Below are positions 15,790-56,826 of a stretch of 64,000 bases of DNA, piece after piece. The stretch covers positions 49,848,001-49,912,000 of the forward strand of contig NW_027266343.1 of the NCBI RefSeq assembly GCF_022045235.1, in the 5' to 3' direction. Within the stretch, counting starts at the first letter, position 1. Every line of letters begins with the position of its first letter. The stretch is from Haliotis cracherodii. Taxonomy: Eukaryota. Under the pieces are notes generated by a model, which was not told the origin of the DNA, searched no databases, and saw nothing but the letters and a program-made list of their open reading frames with translations. A program made the position numbers and the translations under genes.

Positions 15790-16011
15790 ATGTTTGTGCT
15801 ACGGTCTGTCCTCCTGATGGGCCGTATCACGTGGCGTGTGCACAACTGTCCATCTCGCGTGTGGGCGTGGGTCAAGAGGCACAGGAAATGGTGGTCACTT
15901 CTGTACAAAAGTCTGTTTTACAATGACCATAACTCTTGTAACACTGCCACAGACGCAATGATGGAACCAATGTTTTGGTGTGTGGATCATTTTGCAAAGT
16001 ATATGGGTCCG
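15790..16011 (+). CDS. ZDHHC16: Palmitoyltransferase ZDHHC16, coding exon 1
   Basis: SLFYN...DAMMEPMFWCVDHF N-terminus typical of ZDHHC16; acceptor at 15756, donor CCG|gtaaga. Confidence 0.85.
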
Positions 16012-16744: not shown

Positions 16745-17206
16745 TTTTATTGTTTTTCAAATTTGCAAGCAGATTTATACATTTATCATCCATAGCTGGC
16801 TCCCACAGGAAATATGCTTGGGTGAGATCAAGCGATATCTAGGTTGTAGATATCGCTGCAATGTAATTGCATCACAATGCTTTATAGACCATTGTGACGT
16901 CATTGGTTACCATTACGTCACAATCAAAAAACATCACTAATGGTTCTACTTTTTACAATTAAGACACTGCTTATTACTGTCTACAAATTGAAAAAATTGA
17001 ATGATGTTGGATGATAAATAAAATCTCACCCTAGTGTCTTTTAATATCAATTATATCAACACTCTTTGATTTATTTGATATCAAAAGAAACTCGGGTGAG
17101 ATTTTCTATGTAGTAACAAATTGAACTAATGAATCAAAACAGGGGAAGACATCTCTTTTTAGGAGTAAAAAGTCATTTCAGTATAATATTTGTCTTAATA
17201 TTTCAG

Positions 17207-17398
17207 ATTATGGTAACAATGGTTGTGTTCCTGACGACGATGGTAGTGGCCATCTTCTATGTGTGTCTGCTTCCACATATTTATTACGAGTCTATGGCAG
17301 CTACTGTGTTTCACCTGGTGTTTGGGCACTGGCTGCTTCTCATGATCATCTTCAACTACATCATGGCCTGCTTCACCAGCCCTGGACACCCCCCAGAT
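17207..17398 (+). CDS. ZDHHC16: ZDHHC16 coding exon 2 (TM1-TM2, TSPGHPP)
   Basis: tttcag acceptor, GAT|gtaagt donor, phase 0/0. Confidence 0.92.
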
Positions 17399-18000
17399 GT
17401 AAGTACACCAGCCCCGGACACCCCCCTGATGTAAGTACACCAGACACCCCCCAGATGTAAGTACACCAGCCCCGGACACCCCCCAGATGTAAGTACACCA
17501 GACACCCCCCAGATGTAAGCACCCCAGACACCCCCCAGATGTAAGTATACCAGCTCCAGACACCCTCCAGATGTAAGTATACCAGCCCCGGACACCCTCC
17601 AGATGTAAGTATACCAGCTCCAGACACCCTCCAGATGTAAGTATACCAGCTCCAGACACCCCCCAGATGTAAGTATACCAGCTCCAGACACCCTCCAGAT
17701 GTAAGTATACCAGCTCCAGACACCCTCCAGATGTAAGTATACCAGCTCCAGACACCCTCCAGATGTGAGTACCCCGGACACCCCACAGATGTAAGTATAC
17801 CAGCTCCAGACAACCTCCAGTCGAAGTACCCTGGACACCCCACAGATGTAAGTACACCAGCCCCAGACACCCTCCAGATGTAAGTATACCAGCTCCAGAC
17901 ACCCTCCAGATGTAAGTACCCCGGACACCCAACAGATGTAAATACACCAGACACCCTCCAGATGTAAGTACCCCAGACACCCCACAGATGTAAGTACACC
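17375..18000. repeat. 32/26-bp minisatellite made from the ZDHHC16 exon 2/intron junction
   Basis: Unit ACCAGCCCCGGACACCCCCCAGAT|GTAAGTAC, about 21 copies including the real junction. Confidence 0.95.
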
Positions 18001-18155
18001 ATGCCACTGTTACATGCAAGGACACTTCACCACAGATGCCTTCCAGATGTAATAACTTTGTTATATTAATCCAATAATAAAAAGGGTTATGTATAGTTTC
18101 AAATTCAGCTGATTGTAAGTATCATGTTGCTTACTGCCTGACTCTGTGTGTGCAG

Positions 18156-18267
18156 AACCTGCCAGAAGTTGTCTCCATCTGCAAGAAATGCATCTCCCCC
18201 AAGCCTCCTCGCACACACCATTGCAGCGTGTGCCGCCAGTGCGTAATGAAGATGGATCATCACTGTC
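18156..18267 (+). CDS. ZDHHC16: ZDHHC16 coding exon 3 (DHHC-CRD)
   Basis: [29 protein letters not shown]; ends C|GTATCCTTT. Confidence 0.95.
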
Positions 18268-18307
18268 GTATCCTTTCACCGAGTCAATCTCCACACAGGC
18301 TGGAATC

Positions 18308-19215
18308 CATATTCCCGAGGCAAGGGAGTTAACTGACTGTCCTGTTTCCACTCTTGCCAAACTATGCTGGCATTATAGAGTTATATTCTGGCTGAACTAA
18401 CCAGTCTATGCATAGTCCAATCAAAATTGCTTGACGAAATCGACATCGGTTTCGTAAAGTGCCCAGAATTTGTTCGCTTGCACAATTTGCAAAGCATGTA
18501 TACCGCCAACATATGATATTTTCCAAATCATTTCATGTTTTTAATCAAGGTGCTCACGTCATCTGCTCGCGAGTACGCAGCCCGTGTTTTGATATTACTG
18601 GTAGCTGCATATTACGGCTGCAATGAGATGTCCTCAGATCTTTGTTTAGTGGAAGCAAGAACTAAGATATGATTTTAATGAGATTGTACATCTTCCAGTG
18701 GCAATGGCGTTAACTGACTATAAAAGTCCAGTTTTCACCCTTGCCAAACTAGGCTGGAATTCCGGAGTTACTTTCAAAATCGTGTAACGAACTAGACATC
18801 TGGTTCGTAAACAACATGGATTTCAACATGCAGATTTTGGTTGACATAAGGATTTGCAGAGCATTTGTACCGTCCACTTGGCATCGACTGATATTTTGCA
18901 AATCTTTTCATGTTTTCATATTTTTCAAGGTACTCAAGTTATTTGATGCACTTCGTGAGATAAGGCCCTTTTAGTTACAATATAGATTTTGATTATAGAT
19001 CAGATCGTCATGACTGGACGCCTCAATTTTGTTTGAGGCAATTGCAAGTGATATGAGAGGTGGAATTTGGTTGGTCAATAGGAGGGACATAGAAGGGACA
19101 AAACTCGTAATAGTCACTGGTGGCACCACAATCGGGCCTGGAAATGCCAGCCAGGTTCGGCAAGGGTGGAAACTGGACTTTCATAGTCAGTTAACTCCCT
19201 TGCCTCAGGAAGATG
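18308..19215. mobile_element. Composite of M1 fragment, M2 right arm and a complete M1 MITE
   Basis: M1 left end 18308, M2 right TIR ~18624-18686, M1 18689-19215. Confidence 0.75.
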
Positions 19216-19497
19216 AGGTCAATATTCTGGGGGGTCCACATTAGGATACATTGTTTCATCACATGATTAACCAATAGAATTGCAAGATTCTTAATAGAGG
19301 TATAACAGCTGCTGTCCTTGTTTTCGCATATTGACCACATGTGCACACCTGACCTTCTCACATGATGCATAGTTCTCCCTAGGGACGAATCTTATGCGAA
19401 ATGTATGCTATTCTATACTTGCAAGGGACCATTATTTACTAACATGAACCTCTCAGTGTTATCCTCGTACACATCTATACAGACCTATACTGTTCAC

Positions 19498-19740
19498 ATC
19501 CGTGAAGATTCCGGGGTAGAATAGGTCTTCAGCAACCCATGCTTGCCGTAAAAGGTGACTATGCTTGTCATAAAAGGCGACTAACAGGATCGGGTGGTCA
19601 GGCTCGCTGACTTGGTTGATGCATGTCATCGATCCCAATTGCGTGGATCGATGCTCATGATATCATCACTGGATTGTCTGGTTTAGACTCGATTATTTAC
19701 AGACCGCCGTCATATAGCTGGAAATTGCTGAGTGCGGCTG
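19498..19740 (+). mobile_element. SINE family C (tgtcgtaagaggcgact-type body)
   Basis: Matches 62440-62710; also 20614, 23555(-), 27615, 37823, 53086, 56160, 59655, 61805. Confidence 0.85.
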
Positions 19741-19786
19741 TTCCAATACATGTTCTCCTCCAGCTTGTTTTCCTCAACCCCCCCAG

Positions 19787-19920
19787 CGTGGCTGAACAAC
19801 TGCGTCGGCTTCTACAACCACCGCTACTTCTTCATGTTCTGTGTGTACATGTGGTCTGGCACCATCTACGTCAGCAGCGTTGGCTACAACCTCTTCAAAC
19901 AGCACTTCTACGGCAGCAAG
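19787..19920 (+). CDS. ZDHHC16: ZDHHC16 coding exon 4
   Basis: PWLNNCVGFYNHRYFFMFC; donor AAG|gtaaac. Confidence 0.95.
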
Positions 19921-21674: not shown

Positions 21675-21740
21675 GACATTGTGTTTCCTGGGATACTTTA
21701 TCCGGTGAATCTCGCCTGGGAAGCGTGGACCTCTAGAAAG
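21675..21740 (+). CDS. ZDHHC16: ZDHHC16 coding exon 5 (66 nt, loop region)
   Basis: tttcag|GAC...AAG|gtaaca, open, phase 0/0; little homology support. Confidence 0.65.
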
Positions 21741-23155: not shown

Positions 23156-23173
23156 AATGTTTTGTCAAAGCAG

Positions 23174-23419
23174 GTGACACCCAAGGTGCCTGTGATAGAG
23201 GCAGACATGTTGACAAGCAGCATGGACGAGTTTCAGCCAGACCTGAAGGGACAGTGGATCCACAACGCCATCATCTTCGAGTTCCTGCTGTGTACAGGGG
23301 TTTGCATTGCTCTCGGGCTCCTCACCGTCTGGCACGCCCGCATGATCAGCACCGCGGAGACCAGCGTCGAGGTCCACATCAACAAGAAGGAGAGGAAGAG
23401 GCTGAGGAAGAAGGGCATG
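23174..23419 (+). CDS. ZDHHC16: ZDHHC16 coding exon 6 (TM4, ETSVE); NAGNAG acceptor 23171/23174
   Basis: FLLCTGVCIALGLLTVWHARMISTAETSVEVHINKKE; donor ATG|gtaggg. Confidence 0.92.
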
Positions 23420-24923: not shown

Positions 24924-24994
24924 ATTTTCAAAAATCCTTATGACTTTGGATTTGTGGAGAACTGGAAAATCTTCCTGGGAATAGAAAAGGACAG
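24924..24994 (+). CDS. ZDHHC16: ZDHHC16 coding exon 7
   Basis: IFKNPYDFGFVENWKIFLG (PaCCT motif); ttgcag acceptor, AG|gtaaga donor. Confidence 0.93.
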
Positions 24995-29759: not shown

Positions 29760-30263
29760 GCTGGACTTGACAACACGCATATACTCTCCAATCAGGCACA
29801 CCAATGATGGATGCGACAACGCACATATACTCTCCAATCAGGCACACCAATGTTGGATGCGACAACACACGCTATCTTCAATCAGGCATACCAATGTTGG
29901 CCGTGATATAACACACGCTATCTTCGATCAGGCATACCAATGTTGGCCGTGATATAACACACGCTATCTTCGATCAGACATACCAATGTTGGACGTGATA
30001 TAACACGCTATCTTCGAACAGGCATACCAATGTTGGCCGTGATATAACACGCTATCTTCGATCAGGCATACCAATGTTGGCCGTGATATAACACACGCTA
30101 TCTTCGATCAGACATACCAATGTTGGCTGTGATATAACACACGCTATCTTCGATCAGGCATACCAATGTTGGACGTGATATAACACACGCTATCTTCGAT
30201 CAGGCATACCAATGATGGACGTGATATAACGCGCTATCTTCGATCAGGCATACCAATGTTGGA
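29760..30263. repeat. 44-46-bp minisatellite made from the MED28 last codons, stop and start of 3' UTR
   Basis: Minus-strand unit TCCAACATTGGTATGCCTGATCGAAGATAG-CGTGTGTTATATCACG, about 9 good plus 2-3 decayed copies. Confidence 0.93.
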
Positions 30264-30587
30264 CATAGTTTGTTCCAGGTAAGCTAGGGGCCCTGGTTGG
30301 TATGCTGGTGGGGGTTGAGGCGGAGGCATGACGAAGGGCTGAGGGACGGCACCTGGCATGGGGGGGCCAGGGTACGGGGCCATGCCTGGGTGCTGCTGTG
30401 GGTGCATCGGCTGGGGAGGGGGAGGTTGTTGCATCTGGGGGGGTTGCTGCTGGTGAAGCGAGGGCTGCTGGGGGGTTCCAGTGCCAGGCATGTTGCGGAG
30501 GAGGTTCTGCCAGTGCTGTAGACGTTCATGGTGTTTTTCTATCAGCTTCTCTTTTCTCTCAATCTCACTCTTCAGGTCGGCGATGTC
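30234..30587 (-). CDS. MED28: Mediator subunit 28, exon 4
   Basis: DIADLKSEIERKEKLIEKH...W..., P/Q-rich tract, GPLAYLEQ..SNI motif; tttcag acceptor. Confidence 0.93.
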   Translation of the reverse strand, partial: DIADLKSEIERKEKLIEKHHERLQHWQNLLRNMPGTGTPQQPSLHQQQPPQMQQPPPPQPMHPQQHPGMAPYPGPPMPGAVPQPFVMPPPQPPPAYQPGPLAYLEQTMSNIGMPDRR

Positions 30588-35941: not shown

Positions 35942-36572
35942 TTTTCGGTAAACAATGAAAACTTCGGTAACGTTCGGAATATTCCGCCTCAAGGTGTCAC
36001 CCGTTTATCCAGCATGCAGTTTCAAGTGTATGTATAATCGAGGTCATAACGGTCATCACTTTGTTTACTTCCGGGTTCATCTCAGCTGAGGGACACCACT
36101 CTTCTGTCTGAACGGGATCGAAATAGTGACAGCTTTATTCTCGGAACAACGACGATTCATATTTTGTTATATGGATAATCTGATGTAATGGTCTACATGG
36201 AAAATTGATGTTGTACGAATTTTATTGTAACCTTCAACAATTTTCCAACGATTCAGACAGACTCTGCGTGGTGTTTATTAGGAACCCGGAAGCACTGTTA
36301 GATTGGGTTTTAATACGTGCCTCCCTGTGAATAAGTTATTTAGGGCGTGTCATGATTAAAACTCTACATGACAGAGAGAGGGAGACAACTGACAGATCTT
36401 CCCACAATTTTGAAGTCACGTCATTTACTCAAGTCTTTACTGTGTCAGTGGTTCGAGCATATCTACTTTCTGACATCATATCCTGTTTATAACTCCTTAC
36501 ACTCTGTATGGGCAGTTGACGTAAACTATCAATTCTAAAAGTGAGGAAATAGTTTCTCACGTTTTTGCAACA
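35942..36572. promoter_or_regulatory. Probable bidirectional promoter MED28/TMEM127
   Basis: Divergent ATGs about 630 bp apart; ETS-like ACTTCCGG (~36067) and CCGGAAG (~36286). Confidence 0.6.
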
Positions 36573-36960
36573 ATGCCGTCAAGCACAAGTACAAGTAGGA
36601 GTTCAGGGAGAAATCGCGAGGGTGGCACAAGGCGAAATCGATCCAGAGTAAGATCTCGTACTCGACACCGAGAATCAAGAAGCCATTCACAGAGTCAGAG
36701 TCAGAGTCGTTTTCGCTTCAAGCTGAAGGAGCGAAACTACCCGGCAGCAGTGTGCAGCATGATAACGATCGTGCTGTTGTGTGTATCAATGGCTGAACCC
36801 CGATGGATATCCCTCCGCGGAGGGGGCTGCAGTTTGGCAGACACAAAGAATGGATATCTTCATTCTCTCGGTGTCAACCAATTCTTCTACAGCGGCAAAT
36901 TGGTTACCATGCAATCAGACAAGTCTATACACTACCATTTTGGTCCAGATCCAGATGAAG
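36573..36960 (+). CDS. TMEM127: Transmembrane protein 127-like, copy A, coding exon 1
   Basis: RS-rich N-terminus, ERNYPAAVC...LCVSMAEPRW motif; G|gtagtc donor. Confidence 0.85.
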
Positions 36961-38378
36961 GTAGTCATCATTTCAGCATCTGTAATCACTGTGTATATCT
37001 ATCATAGGGATGCTAGTGCCATAGTCATGATTTTAATTTAATACAGACATCCATTCCTTTATTTTTGTTTCTCAATAAGAACTTAAAGAGTGACTTTACT
37101 TATGGATCAGTCCATTTGGCACTCTTAGAACGTTTGATTAAATTGGTTTAAACTCTTGCACCACACGCACGTTTATGTTATGTATGCCAATCTAGCATTT
37201 ATATGTTTAATAATGTTTAAGCACTGCATCTCAGTTAATAATGATCACTAGTTACAAAGTCTAAACTATAGCAATACTTATTGTGATATATAGGGAGCTA
37301 AAGTGTTTGACAGCTATGGACAAATTCTGTCTTCTAAACACTAAATATGGTCATTTGCTGCCTTTTACATGTTTTAGTTGGCATGCATTCAGGGGAGATA
37401 ACGATGTGAGAGAAAAAATCACTTCCATGATTCCGCCATTGTGTCAATCAATTTGTGATTGAATTTCTGTGTAGGATAAGCAATACAAATAATAATCAAA
37501 CTTGTTATATATTGTTTACTCACTATTTGGGAAGATTGGAAGATTTTTTGAATGAACAAGTCGTTCAGAAATGATATGCCAAAAATATGTTTGTTCGCAA
37601 CCCCACCCAACCCCCCTGCTATAAATCAAATGGATGCTCCCAAATCTGCTAATGGGACACAGAAAAAATATTTCAAAATGTATCATTTGAAACGTGTATT
37701 ACCATGATTAAAGTACACAGTTGTATACCAGAAATACAGTGCTGTTCTAATAATGAACCAATTATTGTTCAAGACAGCCATCTTGATTTGAGAACTGCAT
37801 GAATGGTAGTTATCTACATTTGAGACCCGTGAAGATCCGGGGTAGAACATCTTCAGCAACCCATGCTTGCCGTAAAAGGCGACTATGCTTGTCGTAAGAG
37901 GTGACTAACAGGATCAGGTGGTCAGGCTCGCATGTCATCATATCCCAATTGCATGGATCAATGCTCATGATGTCAATCACTGGATTGTGTGGTCGAGACT
38001 CTATTATTTACAGACTGCTGTCACATAGTTGGAATATAGCAACAAACACAAAACAAAATATCTTCATTTGACATTATCATATGTAAAACAAAGGCACTTA
38101 TTCAGCGTTTTATATGTTTTATTTCATCTTGTCATCACCAACGTGAAAAGCCATGAGTTGGACAGGATAGGCCATACTTCTTTGATAGAAAATGAATCGG
38201 CTGTGTCACAATGCAGTTGCATTATCATGGTTATGCTTTGTTCTCATGTTATTGGTAAATAAGGCCAGGATATTACCAATCACTATTGCATTAGTGGCAT
38301 CACAATAGTGTGTTTAATTAAAATGACCCAAACAGGCGCACCTAGTACTGACTGTTGCCATGTAAACTGTCATTCCAG

Positions 38379-38549
38379 TGTTGATCAACTGTGTGGACAG
38401 CAAGTCGGTGCTGCTCTTCAAGATTGTCATCTTCTTCAGTTTTTTGACGATTGTGATCTGCATGGCTTCCTTCCTCCTCGATCTAACAGGGCCGTCCGGG
38501 AGAGTTCTGCAAAGATTTCACCGTAATGCAATCTTCAGCATCATTACAG
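38379..38549 (+). CDS. TMEM127: TMEM127 copy A exon 2
   Basis: NCV...FLLDLTGP...RNAIFSIIT; phase 1/1. Confidence 0.9.
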
Positions 38550-38747
38550 GTAGGTGGCAGTACACGGTACCCTGGCTAGAACGAGAACAGGCTCTTGTAC
38601 CTTGGTAACTACAAGTAAATATTATTCTGCAAAGGCCATTCTAACCATGTGCTAACCTTGCTAAGCATGAGAAGTACACCATGTGCAAGTAATGTCATAT
38701 ACCATGGCTATGCTGTACCTTTGACTTTAACTTACTATGTGTGGGTT

Positions 38748-39242
38748 CAATGTGTTTCACATGTTTCAGGGATCTTGTGCATGGTTATCAATGTGTTTCA
38801 CATGTTTCAGTAACCCTGTGCATTATTATCAATGTGTTTGACATGATTCAGTGACCCTGTGCATGGTTAACAATGTGTTTCACATGTTTCAGGGATCTTG
38901 TGCATGCTATCAATGTGTTTCACATGTTTCAGTGACCCTGTGCATGGTTAACAATTTGTTTCACATGTTTCAGTGACCCCGTGCATCATTATCAATGTTT
39001 CACATGTTTCAGTGACCCTGTGCATGGTTAACAATGTGTTTCACACGTTTCAGTGACCCTGTGCATGGTTAACAATGTGTTTCTCATGTTTCAGTGACCC
39101 TGTGTGGGGGAAATAATGCATGTTTGAAATGTTTCAGTGACCCATTGTGTGATTATCAATGTGTTTCACATGTTTCAGTGACCCTGTGTGTGGGTAATAA
39201 TGCATGTTTCACATGTTTCAGTGACCCTGTGTGTGGTCATCA
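38748..39242. repeat. ~41-bp minisatellite made from the TMEM127-A exon 3 acceptor junction
   Basis: Unit ATGTGTTTCACATGTTTCAG|TGACCCTGTGCATGGTTATCA, 12 copies, the last is the real acceptor. Confidence 0.93.
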
Positions 39243-39604
39243 ACCTGTTCTGCTACTGGATATCCTTCCTTGTTGAGCAAATCCAGAAGAAGACCAAGCA
39301 GGATCACGTGGAGGTCACATTTGACATCAGTTTCTACTTGGTGGCGGCGGCAGGAAGTGCCTCCGTGTTTGCCGTGGCGTGTAACTGTTTCCGACGCTAC
39401 CCCCTGCACGAGGATGTCTCATACCAGCGCCTCAATGAATGTGATGACATGGAGTATCTGGCTGCCCTGTACGACCAGCAGAGCGCCCCACCCCCTAACG
39501 TCTCCCCGCCCCCATATTCTCCCTCCCCCAACACACCAGCAGCAGGGGTCACACCCGCCCCACAGGAATCAGCTGCTGCTCAGTCTCTCAGTGTCAGTGC
39601 TTAG
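39222..39604 (+). CDS. TMEM127: TMEM127 copy A exon 3 (313 aa total)
   Basis: VTLCVVINLFCYW...VTFDISFYLVAAAG...PPPYSP (PY motif). Confidence 0.9.
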
Positions 39605-52291: not shown

Positions 52292-53491
52292 TTTGGACGT
52301 TATATGATACTAGTAAGGAAGGGCGATTCCTGTGGCCCTTGTCTGAGACAGCAGTCAGGAGGTGCATAGTTCAATCAAAATTGTGTACTGAACTGTTAAT
52401 AAACAACATGAATTTCAATGTACAGATTTCAGTCAACTGCAGGATTTGCAAAGCATTTGTACTAACAGATAGGAAAAAAAACATCAGGGAACATGACTAA
52501 CACTACTGACATGTCAGATATCACAGGGATAGATGTGAACACTGGTTCATTAGTGCATGACAACTGAAAATCTAGCAGGACTAGTTGTTGCTCCCCCATA
52601 TAGAGTTACTTTACTGAAACCACCAGTCCAAAATAAGATGAGGACAAGTTGGATATTACCCCTGTATCATATAAGTAGAAAAACAAAACAGATATTTTTC
52701 ATGTTCACTAGTGAACATTAGTGGTCATTAAACATGCTAAAGGTCACCAACTATTAACAATTACGGTCTACAGTCACAGTAAAGAGTGTCACATCGGCAA
52801 TATTTCAACCATATTGTGACGAGACCAATTTATGTATTGAGTAAATACATTTAAAGTTTATAAAAATCTGTCGACAATGGACAGTAAGACAGCTAGAGTA
52901 TTATAGATTTGTATTTGAAGCTAGCATATACTCTTAAAATATGACTATTCATTACAATACATACTGAAAGTGAGCCATAGATCACCAGCAACCAAAATTA
53001 GGCCACCAGACCAGGGACCATGGGAACTTACGGTACTTCTGCTACCTTGATAACATGAATCTGAAGCTTGACCCTCTGAAGATACTGGGTGAGAATTTGT
53101 CTTTGGAAATCCATGCTCCTTGTAAGAGGCGACTAACGGGATGGGGCGGTCAGGTTCGCTGACTTGGTTGACATATGCCATCATATCCCAAATGAGTAGA
53201 TCAATGTTATTGGTATCAATCTCTGGATTGTCTGGTTGAGACTTGATTATGTACAGACTGCCATTATATAGCAGGAATATTGCTGAGTGCGATGTTAGTA
53301 AAAAAAGCAAAGATAAAACGTTGCTCTGACTACCAGGAAATAATACTGAAAGTGAGTTGGCGCTCTTGTCATGAGTCAAACTATTATGAATATTCAAAAT
53401 GGCCTTTATGCCTTTGGCACACCTTGATATGTTTCTAGTAATGAAGTTTGTCTTTCTTGTTTGACAGGCATGCATCAGTAGACTACCCACT

Positions 53492-53879
53492 ATGCCAAGT
53501 TCACGGAGTTCAGGGAGAACTCGAAGTCGGGAGTCGACATCAAGAAGAAGTCGCTCAAGCAACCGATCACGCAGTCGTCATAGCGATGGCCAGAGTCGCA
53601 GTCGACGCCATTCACACTGTAATTTCAAACAGCGTGAACGGAACTTTGCCGGAGCCGTTTGTAACATGATAACTATTGTGATTCTGTGTGTGGCCTTGGC
53701 GGAACCCAAATGGGTGTCCATCTACAATGGACTCTGTAGCCTCATCCAGAGACCGCGGGGAGGATTGCACTTCCTGGGAGCGTTTCAGTTCTTCTATAGT
53801 GGACATTTTATAGCGCCGGGCACATATCCAGACGAAGGCTCTAGTGTTTTATATCAGTATGGGCCCAGCATGCTAGATG
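53492..53879 (+). CDS. TMEM127: TMEM127-like copy B, coding exon 1
   Basis: Paralog of 36573-36960, same 388-nt length; acceptor at 53468 implies an upstream non-coding exon; G|gtaaga donor. Confidence 0.87.
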
Positions 53880-55137
53880 GTAAGATACATGCCAGGTGAA
53901 CATTCTTGTGGTAACCAGCGGTAGAAACGTAACATTTTTAGTCCACTAGTCCTTACAATGATAACATATAGCAAAACCCTTAAAAATGGCAAATTTCATG
54001 ATATCTTAACTCTTGGGCAGTTTGGCCAGGACTACAGGGCTAGTGTCAATTTCTAATGCTGGTTTAACCAATGAATTAAAATGCACAAAATCTTTCAAGA
54101 TAGCTGAACCTTTTTACATATTTTAGGCATTAGCTGCATTCATTCTAGTAAGTGAAGGGACGGTGGGGTAGCCTAGTGGTTAAAGCGTTCGCTCGTCATG
54201 CCGAAGACCCAGGTTCGATTCCCCACATGGGTACAATGTGAAGCCCATTTCTGGCGTCCCCCGCCGTGATATTACTGGAATATGAAGCAGCGTACTCACT
54301 CACTTTAGTAAGGGAAATGCTACTAAACTATGGAATAGGTTCACACTTTAAATAGAAATAGCAACACAAATTACAAAGAAAGACACACTCCCCATTAAGT
54401 CTGCATTGTAATGATAAACAAACACAGTTAATTGTGCAGGATGCAACAAACTTGTATCATCCAAAACTGTCCCCAACAAGAGATATTGCTTGGTTGAGAA
54501 ATTGCTTCACAATGCTTTGCAGACCATTGTGACTCCATTGGATACCATGACGTCACAATCAAATGACATCACTAATGGCTCTTCTACTGAAGCCGTTAGC
54601 AGTACTTTTTACACTTAACAATGCTTAAGACACATCTTAGTACCGTCTACAAACTCAAAAAGTTGGAAGAATGATGTTTGATGATAAATAGAATCTCACT
54701 CTTGTGTCTTTTGATATCAAATATATCAAAACTTGTTGATAAAGGTTTAAAACTCCTTTGCAAGACTCAGAGTTTTGAACTTTTATCGACTCGTGTTGAT
54801 ATATTTGATATCAAACGACACTTGGGTGAGATTCTCTATATCACTACGATGCAAACTTTATCATGTCTTTGGGGATTGTGTCTTTGTTTGTAATTTGTGT
54901 GGCTATTTCTATTTAAAGTGTGAACATATTCCATTGTTTGGTAGCTCTCTGCTGGGTTTCTTTGGTAGGCCTGAAGTGACAAAAGGTGGGTTTCTATTTA
55001 ACAAGGGAACAAGAGGTTCAAGTACAATGTATTTTCCTCTGAATTTATGAAAAATAAGAATCCTATTTTGCCTGCCAAGGCGCTTAGTTTGGAATCCTTT
55101 GCTAATTCTGTACTGCTATGTTTGAATGTTTCCCCAG

Positions 55138-55308
55138 TAATGGCCAACTGTGTGACCACAAAGGCTGTGATGGTGTTCAAGTGGGTGATAGCTGCCTCGT
55201 GTGTCGCAGTCATTTGTAGCCTCATCGCCTTCCTGCTGGATTTGACTGGGCCCACGCAGAGGACCTTCCGCATGTTACATCGCAACGCCATCTTCAGCAT
55301 ACTCACAG
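55138..55308 (+). CDS. TMEM127: TMEM127 copy B exon 2
   Basis: NCVT...AFLLDLTGP...RNAIFSILT; 171 nt as in copy A. Confidence 0.9.
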
Positions 55309-55556
55309 GTACACAGAACAAGTTAAGATGCACCACACTCAGTTTAATAAAAGTCAGATCTTAGTTCTTGCCACCGCTAAACAGATCTCTGACAACATCC
55401 CGTACAGGTCATGTCAGAAGACCTTTCATTCGACCAATCAGAGCATTGCTTACCAGATCGGAGAAAGTGAAAGTCGGAATGTGCTTTTCGATCATGCAAC
55501 CCCGAAAAGGGTAACACAGGGTATTCCAAACAACAGTTCGGGCTCTACACACAGAA

Positions 55557-56093
55557 AATGCACAACACTGCCAAACACGAGGGAAGATGCACAATACTGC
55601 CAAACACGAGGGATGAAGCACAATACTGCCAAACACGAGGGATGATGCACAGTACTGCCAAACACGAGGGAAGATGCACAATACTGCCAAACACGAGGGA
55701 AGATGCACAGTACTGCCAAACACGAGGGAAGATGCACAGTACTGCCAAACACGAGGGATGATGCACAATACTGCCAAACACGAGGGATGATGCACAATAC
55801 ATATGTACTATACACAAGATGCATAACTCTACATATAAGGGAAGATGCACAATACTGCCAAACACGAGGGATGATGCACAATACATATGTACTACACACA
55901 AGATGCCTAACTCTACATACGAGGGAAGATGCACAACACTACGCACTTGTGAGGATGCACAATACTACTCACTAGGGAAGATGCACAATACTACACACTA
56001 GGGAAGATGCACAATACACATGAACTATACGCAAGATGCCTAACTCTACATACGAGGGAAGATGCACAACACTACGCACTAGTGAGGATGCAC
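55557..56093. repeat. 29-bp minisatellite following a truncated M2 MITE (~55345-55540)
   Basis: Unit GGGAAGATGCACAATACTGCCAAACACGA with higher-order variants. Confidence 0.9.
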
Positions 56094-56428
56094 ATATCAC
56101 TGCATGCTATGATTTAGTAACTCTTGTATGATTCTCTGTCATTTTTGTATGGCTTACCACCATCCCCTTATCATAAAAGGCGACTCAGGGGCTTGGATGA
56201 TGGCATGTCATCATATCCCAATTGTGTGGATTGATGCTCATGATCTAAACAATCTGGTCTAGACCTGATGATTTACAGACCGCCATCACATAGCTGGAAT
56301 ACTGCTGAGTGCCATGTTAAGCAACGAACACTCACTCACTCACTCATCACTCACTTTTGTGTGATTCATTCATTCACTCTTGTATGATTCACTCTCTCTT
56401 GTATTATACATTAACTCTTGTGTTGCAG

Positions 56429-56826
56429 TTGTGATCTGTGTGATTGTGAACATCCTGTGCTATTTCATCACGACACAAGTACAGCAGCTTCAAGGGGACA
56501 ACAAGAAAGTAGAGGTGTCCTTTGATGTCAGTTTCTACCTGATCTCGGCAGCGGGAAGCGTGTCCGTGTTTGCTGTGGCCTGCAACTGCCTGCGCCGATA
56601 CCCTCTCCACGAGGAGCCCCGCCCTCAGCCGTACTTGCTGGACGACTGCGACGACCTGCACTCTCTACTGTCTCCCTACAGTCACGACGTTTCCTTCATA
56701 GGGCAACTGCCGCCACCCCCAGCCTACTCCCCCAATGTCCCCTCTACAGCCCCATCTGCAACAACATCTAACACATCTGCAACCTCCTCCACCCCTGGCC
56801 CAGCTCCTGCTAGTGTGGTCGCTTGA
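56429..56826 (+). CDS. TMEM127: TMEM127 copy B exon 3 (318 aa total)
   Basis: VVICVIVNILCYF...VSFDVSFYLISAAG...PPPPAYSP. Confidence 0.9.

What the first reader, a model, noticed from the sequence alone, without database searches (positions are those of the whole stretch)
17375..18000. About 20 extra 5' splice sites behind ZDHHC16 exon 2
Seen: the last 24 exonic nt plus GTAAGTAC are repeated in 32- and 26-nt units, most keeping CAGAT|GTAAGT. The second donor shifts frame (+32) and all later ones include an in-frame TAA (17432-17434). Only the most upstream donor works, although equal-strength copies are closer to the next acceptor. The array fills most of a 757-nt intron.
Basis: seen in the sequence. 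Interest (0 to 1): 0.7.

Follow-up and report, generated by a model that had tools for sequence, protein, structure and literature searches.

The report
Splice-donor minisatellite in abalone ZDHHC16
The end of one exon of an abalone lipid-transferase gene, with its splice signal, is copied 20 more times into the next intron, but contigs from likely RNA runs join at the first signal, so this is likely a harmless repeat of a kind already described in human and lancelet genes.

Summary
A single-locus minisatellite (17375-18001; 32- and 26-nt units) starts 24 nt inside coding exon 2 of an abalone ZDHHC16-like gene and fills 603 of 757 intron bases. It adds 20 unit copies, 16 with an exact GTAAGT. 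Only the first donor (17399) gives the 389-aa protein; the second shifts frame and all later ones include TAA 17432-17434. Contigs of three guessed-RNA runs (two studies) use the first donor, but contigs cannot show rare use of others. DNA contigs from other studies, including a second organism, carry multi-copy units, so it is not an assembly artefact. The arrangement is known: human F7, CBS and 6-16 donor VNTRs and amphioxus 'mirages'. It is common in this genome: 3 of 176 sampled kinase exon edges carry one (chance 1.4, P=0.17), and four more lie in or near the window. The scan noted the same kind before on other DNA of this genome. No sign of selection on the spare donors. Best reading: neutral slippage product, tolerated because the most upstream donor is chosen. 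A length-tuned decay rheostat is not excluded but has little support.

The parts
15790..16011 (+). ZDHHC16-like coding exon 1 (ATG at 15790)
   Evidence: exon chain equals P0001
17207..17398 (+). coding exon 2; its last 24 nt (17375-17398) are the exonic part of the repeat unit
   Evidence: 100% to P0001; contigs of X5 and X11 lie on 17206-17398
17399..17406 (+). authentic 5' splice site GAT|GTAAGTAC (phase 0)
   Evidence: X6 contig joins 17369-17398 to 18156; X5 and X11 leave the stretch at 17398
17375..18001 (+). donor-spanning minisatellite, 32- and 26-nt units, 20 copies of the donor register beyond the real one
   Evidence: unit pattern found 12 times in G000, all here
17431..17438 (+). 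second donor (+32, frameshift, 178-aa product); contains the in-frame TAA 17432-17434 that ends all longer extensions at 149 aa
17374..17378 (+). CACCA microhomology, repeated at 17997-18001; the two would lie 32 nt apart in an array-free allele (inferred seed of the first duplication)
   Evidence: inference
18002..18155 (+). unique part of intron 2 with acceptor; two degenerate donor look-alikes at 18049 and 18115
   Evidence: covered by DNA contigs of X10 and X18
18156..18267 (+). coding exon 3 (zinc-finger/DHHC motif), followed by a U12-like donor
   Evidence: X6 and X17 contigs lie on 18156-18267; Pfam DHHC on P0001
19787..26608 (+). coding exons 4-8 (19787-19920, 21675-21740, 23171-23419, 24924-24994, 26485-stop)

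Best explanation
A tandem repeat that begins in the last 24 bases of ZDHHC16 coding exon 2 copies the exon's splice donor 20 more times into the intron; contigs from likely RNA runs join at the first donor, and the repeat is likely a neutral slippage product that is tolerated because the spliceosome likely commits to the most upstream donor. Inferred steps: a first 32-nt duplication between two CACCA microhomologies flanking the exon/intron border; expansion and partial homogenisation as an ordinary minisatellite before organisms A and B split; donor choice by position (5'-to-3' scanning or exon definition from the exon's own acceptor) rather than by strength or closeness to the next acceptor; any leak to later donors gives premature stops 541-1187 nt before the last junction and would be removed by nonsense-mediated decay.
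For: Shown: anatomy and frame effects. First-donor junction in X6, and X5/X11 contigs (1696 and 1957 nt) that leave the stretch at 17398 with no depth on 17399-17430. Multi-copy units in DNA runs X7, X10, X18. Single locus in G000. Donor columns vary about as much as the rest of the unit: 3 variant alleles in 9 columns against 9 in 17, over 20 regular units. No folding difference between first and later donors: mean unpaired 0.34 against 0.28-0.42. Such arrays are common and not enriched at exon edges: 3 of 176, null 1.4, P=0.17. The mirror case in this window has the real acceptor as the last copy (TMEM127-like; by frame, no RNA laid). Precedent: F7 minigenes use only the most upstream site whatever the copy number, and stronger copies do not compete unless perfect (PMC1557585).
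Against: All RNA evidence is from assembled contigs of runs only guessed to be RNA; contigs drop rare forms and steady-state RNA hides decayed products. X6 holds an 82-nt contig of array units at depth 5.1 (exon depth 10.3) with no cover of the unique intron; low-level pre-mRNA or DNA summed over copies explains it, but exon extension to later donors would look the same. In human 6-16 and CBS the nearest pseudo-sites are used (PMC1557585 introduction). The positional rule was shown in mammalian cells, not in molluscs. The array has persisted in two organisms. The selection test has little power (12 variant alleles).
Confidence: 0.75

Rival explanations
1. Leaky but masked: later donors are used often, but every product carries a premature stop and is destroyed, so only first-donor mRNA is seen. 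The array is then a mildly costly passenger, and decay rather than positional choice keeps the mRNA clean.
For: 16 copies are equal to or better than the real donor in U1 match; all 20 alternatives give stops far upstream of the last junction; array-only contig in X6; CBS and 6-16 use nearby pseudo-sites.
Against: No depth on 17399-17430 in X5 or X11. In F7 the position rule held also for pseudo-sites that would give no stop (PMC1557585 discussion).
Confidence: 0.15
2. Selected rheostat: unit number or splicing-factor levels tune the share of unproductive ZDHHC16 transcripts and so the amount of enzyme.
For: The array is shared by two organisms; all alternatives are non-productive; repeats whose length tracks splicing are catalogued in humans (PMC10078293, passages); the next intron looks U12-type and may be slow.
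Against: No alternative junction seen; donor columns not more conserved; arrays sit at exon edges at chance rate; F7 copy number did not change donor choice; the stop follows from unit length.
Confidence: 0.07
3. Assembly artefact: the array was produced or inflated by the assembler.
For: The exact copy number could not be checked; no long read was laid across the array.
Against: Units differ from each other in patterned ways. DNA contigs of X10 (organism A, another study) and X18 (organism B) stop at the last unit, with about 10-fold summed depth on it and a unit-to-unit loose end in X10; X7 breaks at 17403 with high depth on the unit.
Confidence: 0.01

Closest known systems
Human F7 intron 7 37-bp VNTR (Borensztajn et al. 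2006, PMC1557585; read parts 1, 3 and 4 of 6: abstract, introduction, part of results, most of discussion)
   Same: First unit spans the exon/intron border; identical donors repeated downstream; only the most upstream is used.
   Different: F7 has 5-9 units with 4 exonic nt; here 21 units with 18-24 exonic nt, a GTAAGT core, mixed 32/26-nt units, in a mollusc. Polymorphism and pseudo-site competence were tested for F7, not here.
Human 6-16 intron 2, CBS intron 13, lamin B2 and PDGF intron 4 minisatellites (seen only as summarised in the introduction of PMC1557585)
   Same: Similar copy numbers (10-25) of a donor-bearing unit behind the real donor.
   Different: 6-16 and CBS also use the nearest pseudo-sites; no such use was seen here at contig level.
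Amphioxus 'mirages' (Adh3, globins BflGb6 and BflGb9; PMC3087553, passages of abstract and section 16 read; PMC3902484 seen as search listing only)
   Same: Minisatellite-like duplication of an exon/intron boundary in an invertebrate, at 5' or 3' boundaries, recurrent in the genome, not disturbing normal splicing; unit sizes 10-72 bp at Adh3 cover ours.
   Different: Described in cephalochordates; length and somatic instability were shown there and could not be tested here.
Human splicing-associated tandem repeats, spl-TRs (PMC10078293, passages read)
   Same: A tandem repeat next to a splice site.
   Different: Defined by a length-splicing association, which is untested here.

Membership tests
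Splice-donor minisatellite / 'mirage' | Head-to-tail repeat whose first unit spans a real exon/intron boundary | tested here: met
   Array starts at 17375, 24 nt inside an exon verified by protein identity and contigs
Splice-donor minisatellite / 'mirage' | Splice signal reiterated in the intron | tested here: met
   16 exact GTAAGT copies among 20 further units
Splice-donor minisatellite / 'mirage' | The exon-proximal site is the one mainly used | tested here: met
   X5, X11, X6 contigs; shows the main form only
Splice-donor minisatellite / 'mirage' | Copies silent or nearly silent | tested here: inconclusive
   Contigs drop rare forms; array-only contig in X6
Splice-donor minisatellite / 'mirage' | Locally born, not a dispersed satellite or mobile element | tested here: met
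   12 of 12 pattern matches and 11 of 11 DNA matches in G000 lie at this locus
VNTR in the strict sense | Copy number varies among alleles | not testable with these tools
   Only short-read contigs and one assembly were available
F7-type scanning system | Next copy is activated when the first donor is mutated | not testable with these tools
   Needs a minigene
Splicing-associated tandem repeat (spl-TR) / decay rheostat | Repeat length correlates with junction use or expression | not testable with these tools
   Needs matched genotypes and RNA
Splicing-associated tandem repeat (spl-TR) / decay rheostat | Spare donors kept by selection | tested here: inconclusive
   3 variant alleles in 9 donor columns against 9 in 17 others; no excess conservation, low power
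Recursive or microexon splicing via the CCAG|AT|GT in each unit | Extra bases or intermediate junctions in the mRNA | tested here: not met
   X6 joins the exon end directly to 18156 with no added letters; intermediates not testable

The most novel reading that the evidence does not exclude
The array is a length-variable unproductive-splicing dial: a measurable share of ZDHHC16 pre-mRNA is drawn to the stronger later donors and destroyed, the share depends on unit number and on the slow minor-type intron just downstream, and abalone carry thousands of such dials (about 1-2% of exon edges), a genome-wide layer of repeat-encoded expression variation in a mollusc.
Probability: 0.07. Interest if true: 0.6.

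Novelty: new member of a known kind. Interest (0 to 1): 0.2.

Why it matters
On its own, little: it is one more donor-spanning minisatellite. Its use is as a natural test substrate: 16 equal or better donors lie nearer the acceptor, yet the first is used, which fits the positional rule shown for human F7 and suggests that it also holds in molluscs. My searches found no paper on such repeats in abalone or molluscs (open-access library only). A rough extrapolation from 3 of 176 edges is thousands per abalone genome, so a genome-wide study would be worth more than this locus. Practical point: these arrays can mislead gene prediction and short-read mapping.

Tried and rejected
No run on record as RNA was listed; the four transcript-like runs are guesses. 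X4 (DNA, depth 2.4) covered only 17210-17360 and says nothing about the array; X17 has only 7 letters before 18156, so it does not identify the donor; an interspersed repeat at 17066-17112 crowded the loose-end table. X1 and X2 (possible source of the assembly) were not used. No relative's genome is held, and the look-up of look-alike stretches in other genomes was empty, so no array-free ortholog was seen. The kinase search mostly returned intronless genes; I used 40 of its 135 matches, chosen for short open frames, and 176 automatically called edges from 113 exon hits; edges were not checked with RNA. The exon coordinates were off by one and its stop table is void; one search replaces it. 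The unit at 17820 was left out of the column count. The splice-edge screen gave many false candidates and its output was cut; only Pfam-supported ones are reported. The search for ZDHHC16 as a minor-intron gene gave nothing specific (listing only). Rejected: dispersed satellite, structure masking, microexon use, designed stop codon (follows from unit length).

Full report
Gene and anatomy. The window lies in a 1.18-Gb animal genome. Exon 17207-17398 matches P0001 at 100%, named palmitoyltransferase ZDHHC16-like of Haliotis cracherodii, with cluster members from H. rufescens, H. rubra and H. asinina; all 8 members read TSPGHPPD-NLPEVV across the junction. Eight coding exons of the window translate letter for letter to P0001, and two small acceptor shifts give the annotated isoforms P0002 and P0004. 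Intron 2 of the coding chain runs 17399-18155 (757 nt). A tandem array at 17375-18001 begins 24 nt inside the exon. It has 21 unit starts; the spacings are eleven of 32 nt, seven of 26 nt and one 29+28 pair. Of the 20 copies after the real donor, 16 keep GTAAGT, 3 have one change and 1 is rearranged. Against a recalled U1 5'-end motif the real donor matches 8 of 11 positions (-6.8 kcal/mol); 7 copies are equal and 9 are slightly better (9 of 11, -7.3).

Consequences. Donor 1 gives 389 aa. Donor 2 (+32) gives 178 aa with the stop 541 nt before the last junction. All 19 later unit starts, and intron retention, end at TAA 17432-17434 after 149 aa; for the later donors the stop lies 654-1187 nt before the last junction. 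All lose the DHHC motif region or its frame and would be decay targets by the usual junction rule (established knowledge, untested in abalone). The stop is a by-product: both unit lengths are 2 mod 3, which puts the TAA of the second GTAAG in frame.

Is it real? Yes. Of 22 runs listed I laid 8, all as contigs. In DNA run X7 (organism B) the single-copy contig (depth 24) stops at 17403 and summed depth on the unit rises to 500-3000. In X10 (organism A, another study) and X18 (organism B) the unique-intron contigs stop in the last unit, summed depth there is about ten times single copy, and X10 shows a loose end that continues as another unit. X18 differs from the window by 8 letters and 14 gap letters in 328, so the array is probably older than the split of the two organisms (inference). 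Summed depth is not a copy number. X4 was uninformative. The unit pattern occurs 12 times in G000, all at this locus.

Which donor is used? In guessed-RNA runs X5 (organism A) and X11 (organism B) one long contig each lies on 17206-17398 and nothing lies on 17399-17430, which any later donor would retain. In X6 the contig on exon 3 continues upstream as the last 30 letters of the true exon, with no added bases. That is 3 runs from 2 studies; X17 does not reach far enough. Against this, X6 also holds an 82-nt contig of array units at depth 5.1 without cover of the unique intron. It may be pre-mRNA or DNA summed over copies, or extended exons. Contigs cannot exclude rare use.

Origin (inferred). 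CACCA occurs at 17374-17378 in the exon and 17997-18001 after the last donor; without the array the two would be 32 nt apart, the unit length, which suggests slippage at this microhomology from an intron of about 166 nt. The middle units are homogenised and the end units more varied, as is usual for minisatellites. Donor columns show 3 variant alleles in 9 columns against 9 in the other 17 (20 regular units, 17820 left out): no sign that spare donors are kept or purged, with low power. Predicted pairing does not single out the first donor.

Base rate. Minisatellites cover 60 of 264 kb around the window (57 merged arrays) and 47.5 of 400 kb around 40 kinase exons from across the genome (68 arrays). 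Of 176 called kinase exon edges, 3 are spanned by an array that repeats the splice site (L066 donor, L072 donor, L083 acceptor); random shifts give 1.4 (P=0.17). Four more lie in or near the window at Pfam-supported exons: a TMEM127-like acceptor, a NOP5/NOP56-like donor, and one donor and one acceptor of an X-family polymerase gene. In these donor cases the reading frame points to the first copy as real, and in the acceptor cases to the last, which is what exon-centred choice predicts (no RNA laid there). The scan's earlier notes list several more in this genome with the same verdict (AI notes, loci not checked by me).

Known kin. Human F7 intron 7 carries a 37-bp VNTR whose first unit spans the border; minigenes showed that pseudo-sites are functional, only the most upstream is used, copy number does not matter, and stronger copies compete only when perfect (PMC1557585, parts 1, 3, 4 of 6). 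Its introduction lists 6-16, CBS, lamin B2 and PDGF, the first two with some use of nearby copies. Amphioxus 'mirages' are the invertebrate counterpart and did not disturb splicing (PMC3087553, passages; lead). Searches for Haliotis + minisatellite + intron + splice site, ZDHHC16 + Haliotis and mollusc + tandem repeat + exon-intron boundary + cryptic splice + intron gave 0 papers; one search gave 4 unrelated ones; one search gave 6 listings not read. The library lacks most subscription papers, and no supplements were read.

Verdict. Shown: the array, its frame effects, main use of the first donor, presence in independent DNA data, commonness of the kind. Inferred: slippage origin, positional donor choice, decay of leak products, neutrality. 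New member of a known kind; interest 0.2.

Noticed in passing
window 18268-19786 (+): The next ZDHHC16 intron looks U12-type: donor C|GTATCCTTT and TTCCTCAAC 8 nt before the final AG, splitting the H-C-P-W codons; X6 and X17 contigs confirm the junction. The U12 consensus is recalled.
   Followed up: partly
window 38747-39243 (+): 41-nt x 12 array spanning the acceptor (39222) of a TMEM127-like exon; 11 TTTCAG copies, the last in frame with the exon. Mirror image of the finding.
   Followed up: partly
window 1-839 (-), continuing into L020:9376-10000: 30-nt array starting exactly at the donor of a NOP5NT-domain exon (840-1047); 45 GTGAGA copies, 43 with a weaker exon side.
   Followed up: partly
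L013:619-2663 and L013:6965-7655 (+): X-family polymerase gene with a 21-nt x 97 array over one donor (73 GTGAGT copies) and a 32-nt x 22 array over the last acceptor.
   Followed up: partly
L072:2053-2500+ (+), L083 (-), L066 (-): Kinase exons with splice-site-spanning arrays; L072 repeats about 70 exonic nt plus CAG|GTGAGA in 75-nt units, 9.5 times.
   Followed up: partly
L061:5158 onwards (+): Intronic array starting about 17 nt after a kinase donor, with 16 CAG|GTATGT sites preceded by pyrimidines, i.e. acceptor and donor back to back.
   Followed up: no
window 29769-30264 (-): 46-nt array seeded from the last codons and stop of a Med28-domain gene.
   Followed up: no
window 36525-39604 and 53465-56826 (+): Two similar TMEM127-like genes in tandem (Pfam hit shown for the first only).
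   Followed up: no
window 23171/23174 and 26485/26491 (+): Tandem acceptors 3 and 6 nt apart give annotated isoforms X1-X3, also annotated in H. rufescens.
   Followed up: yes
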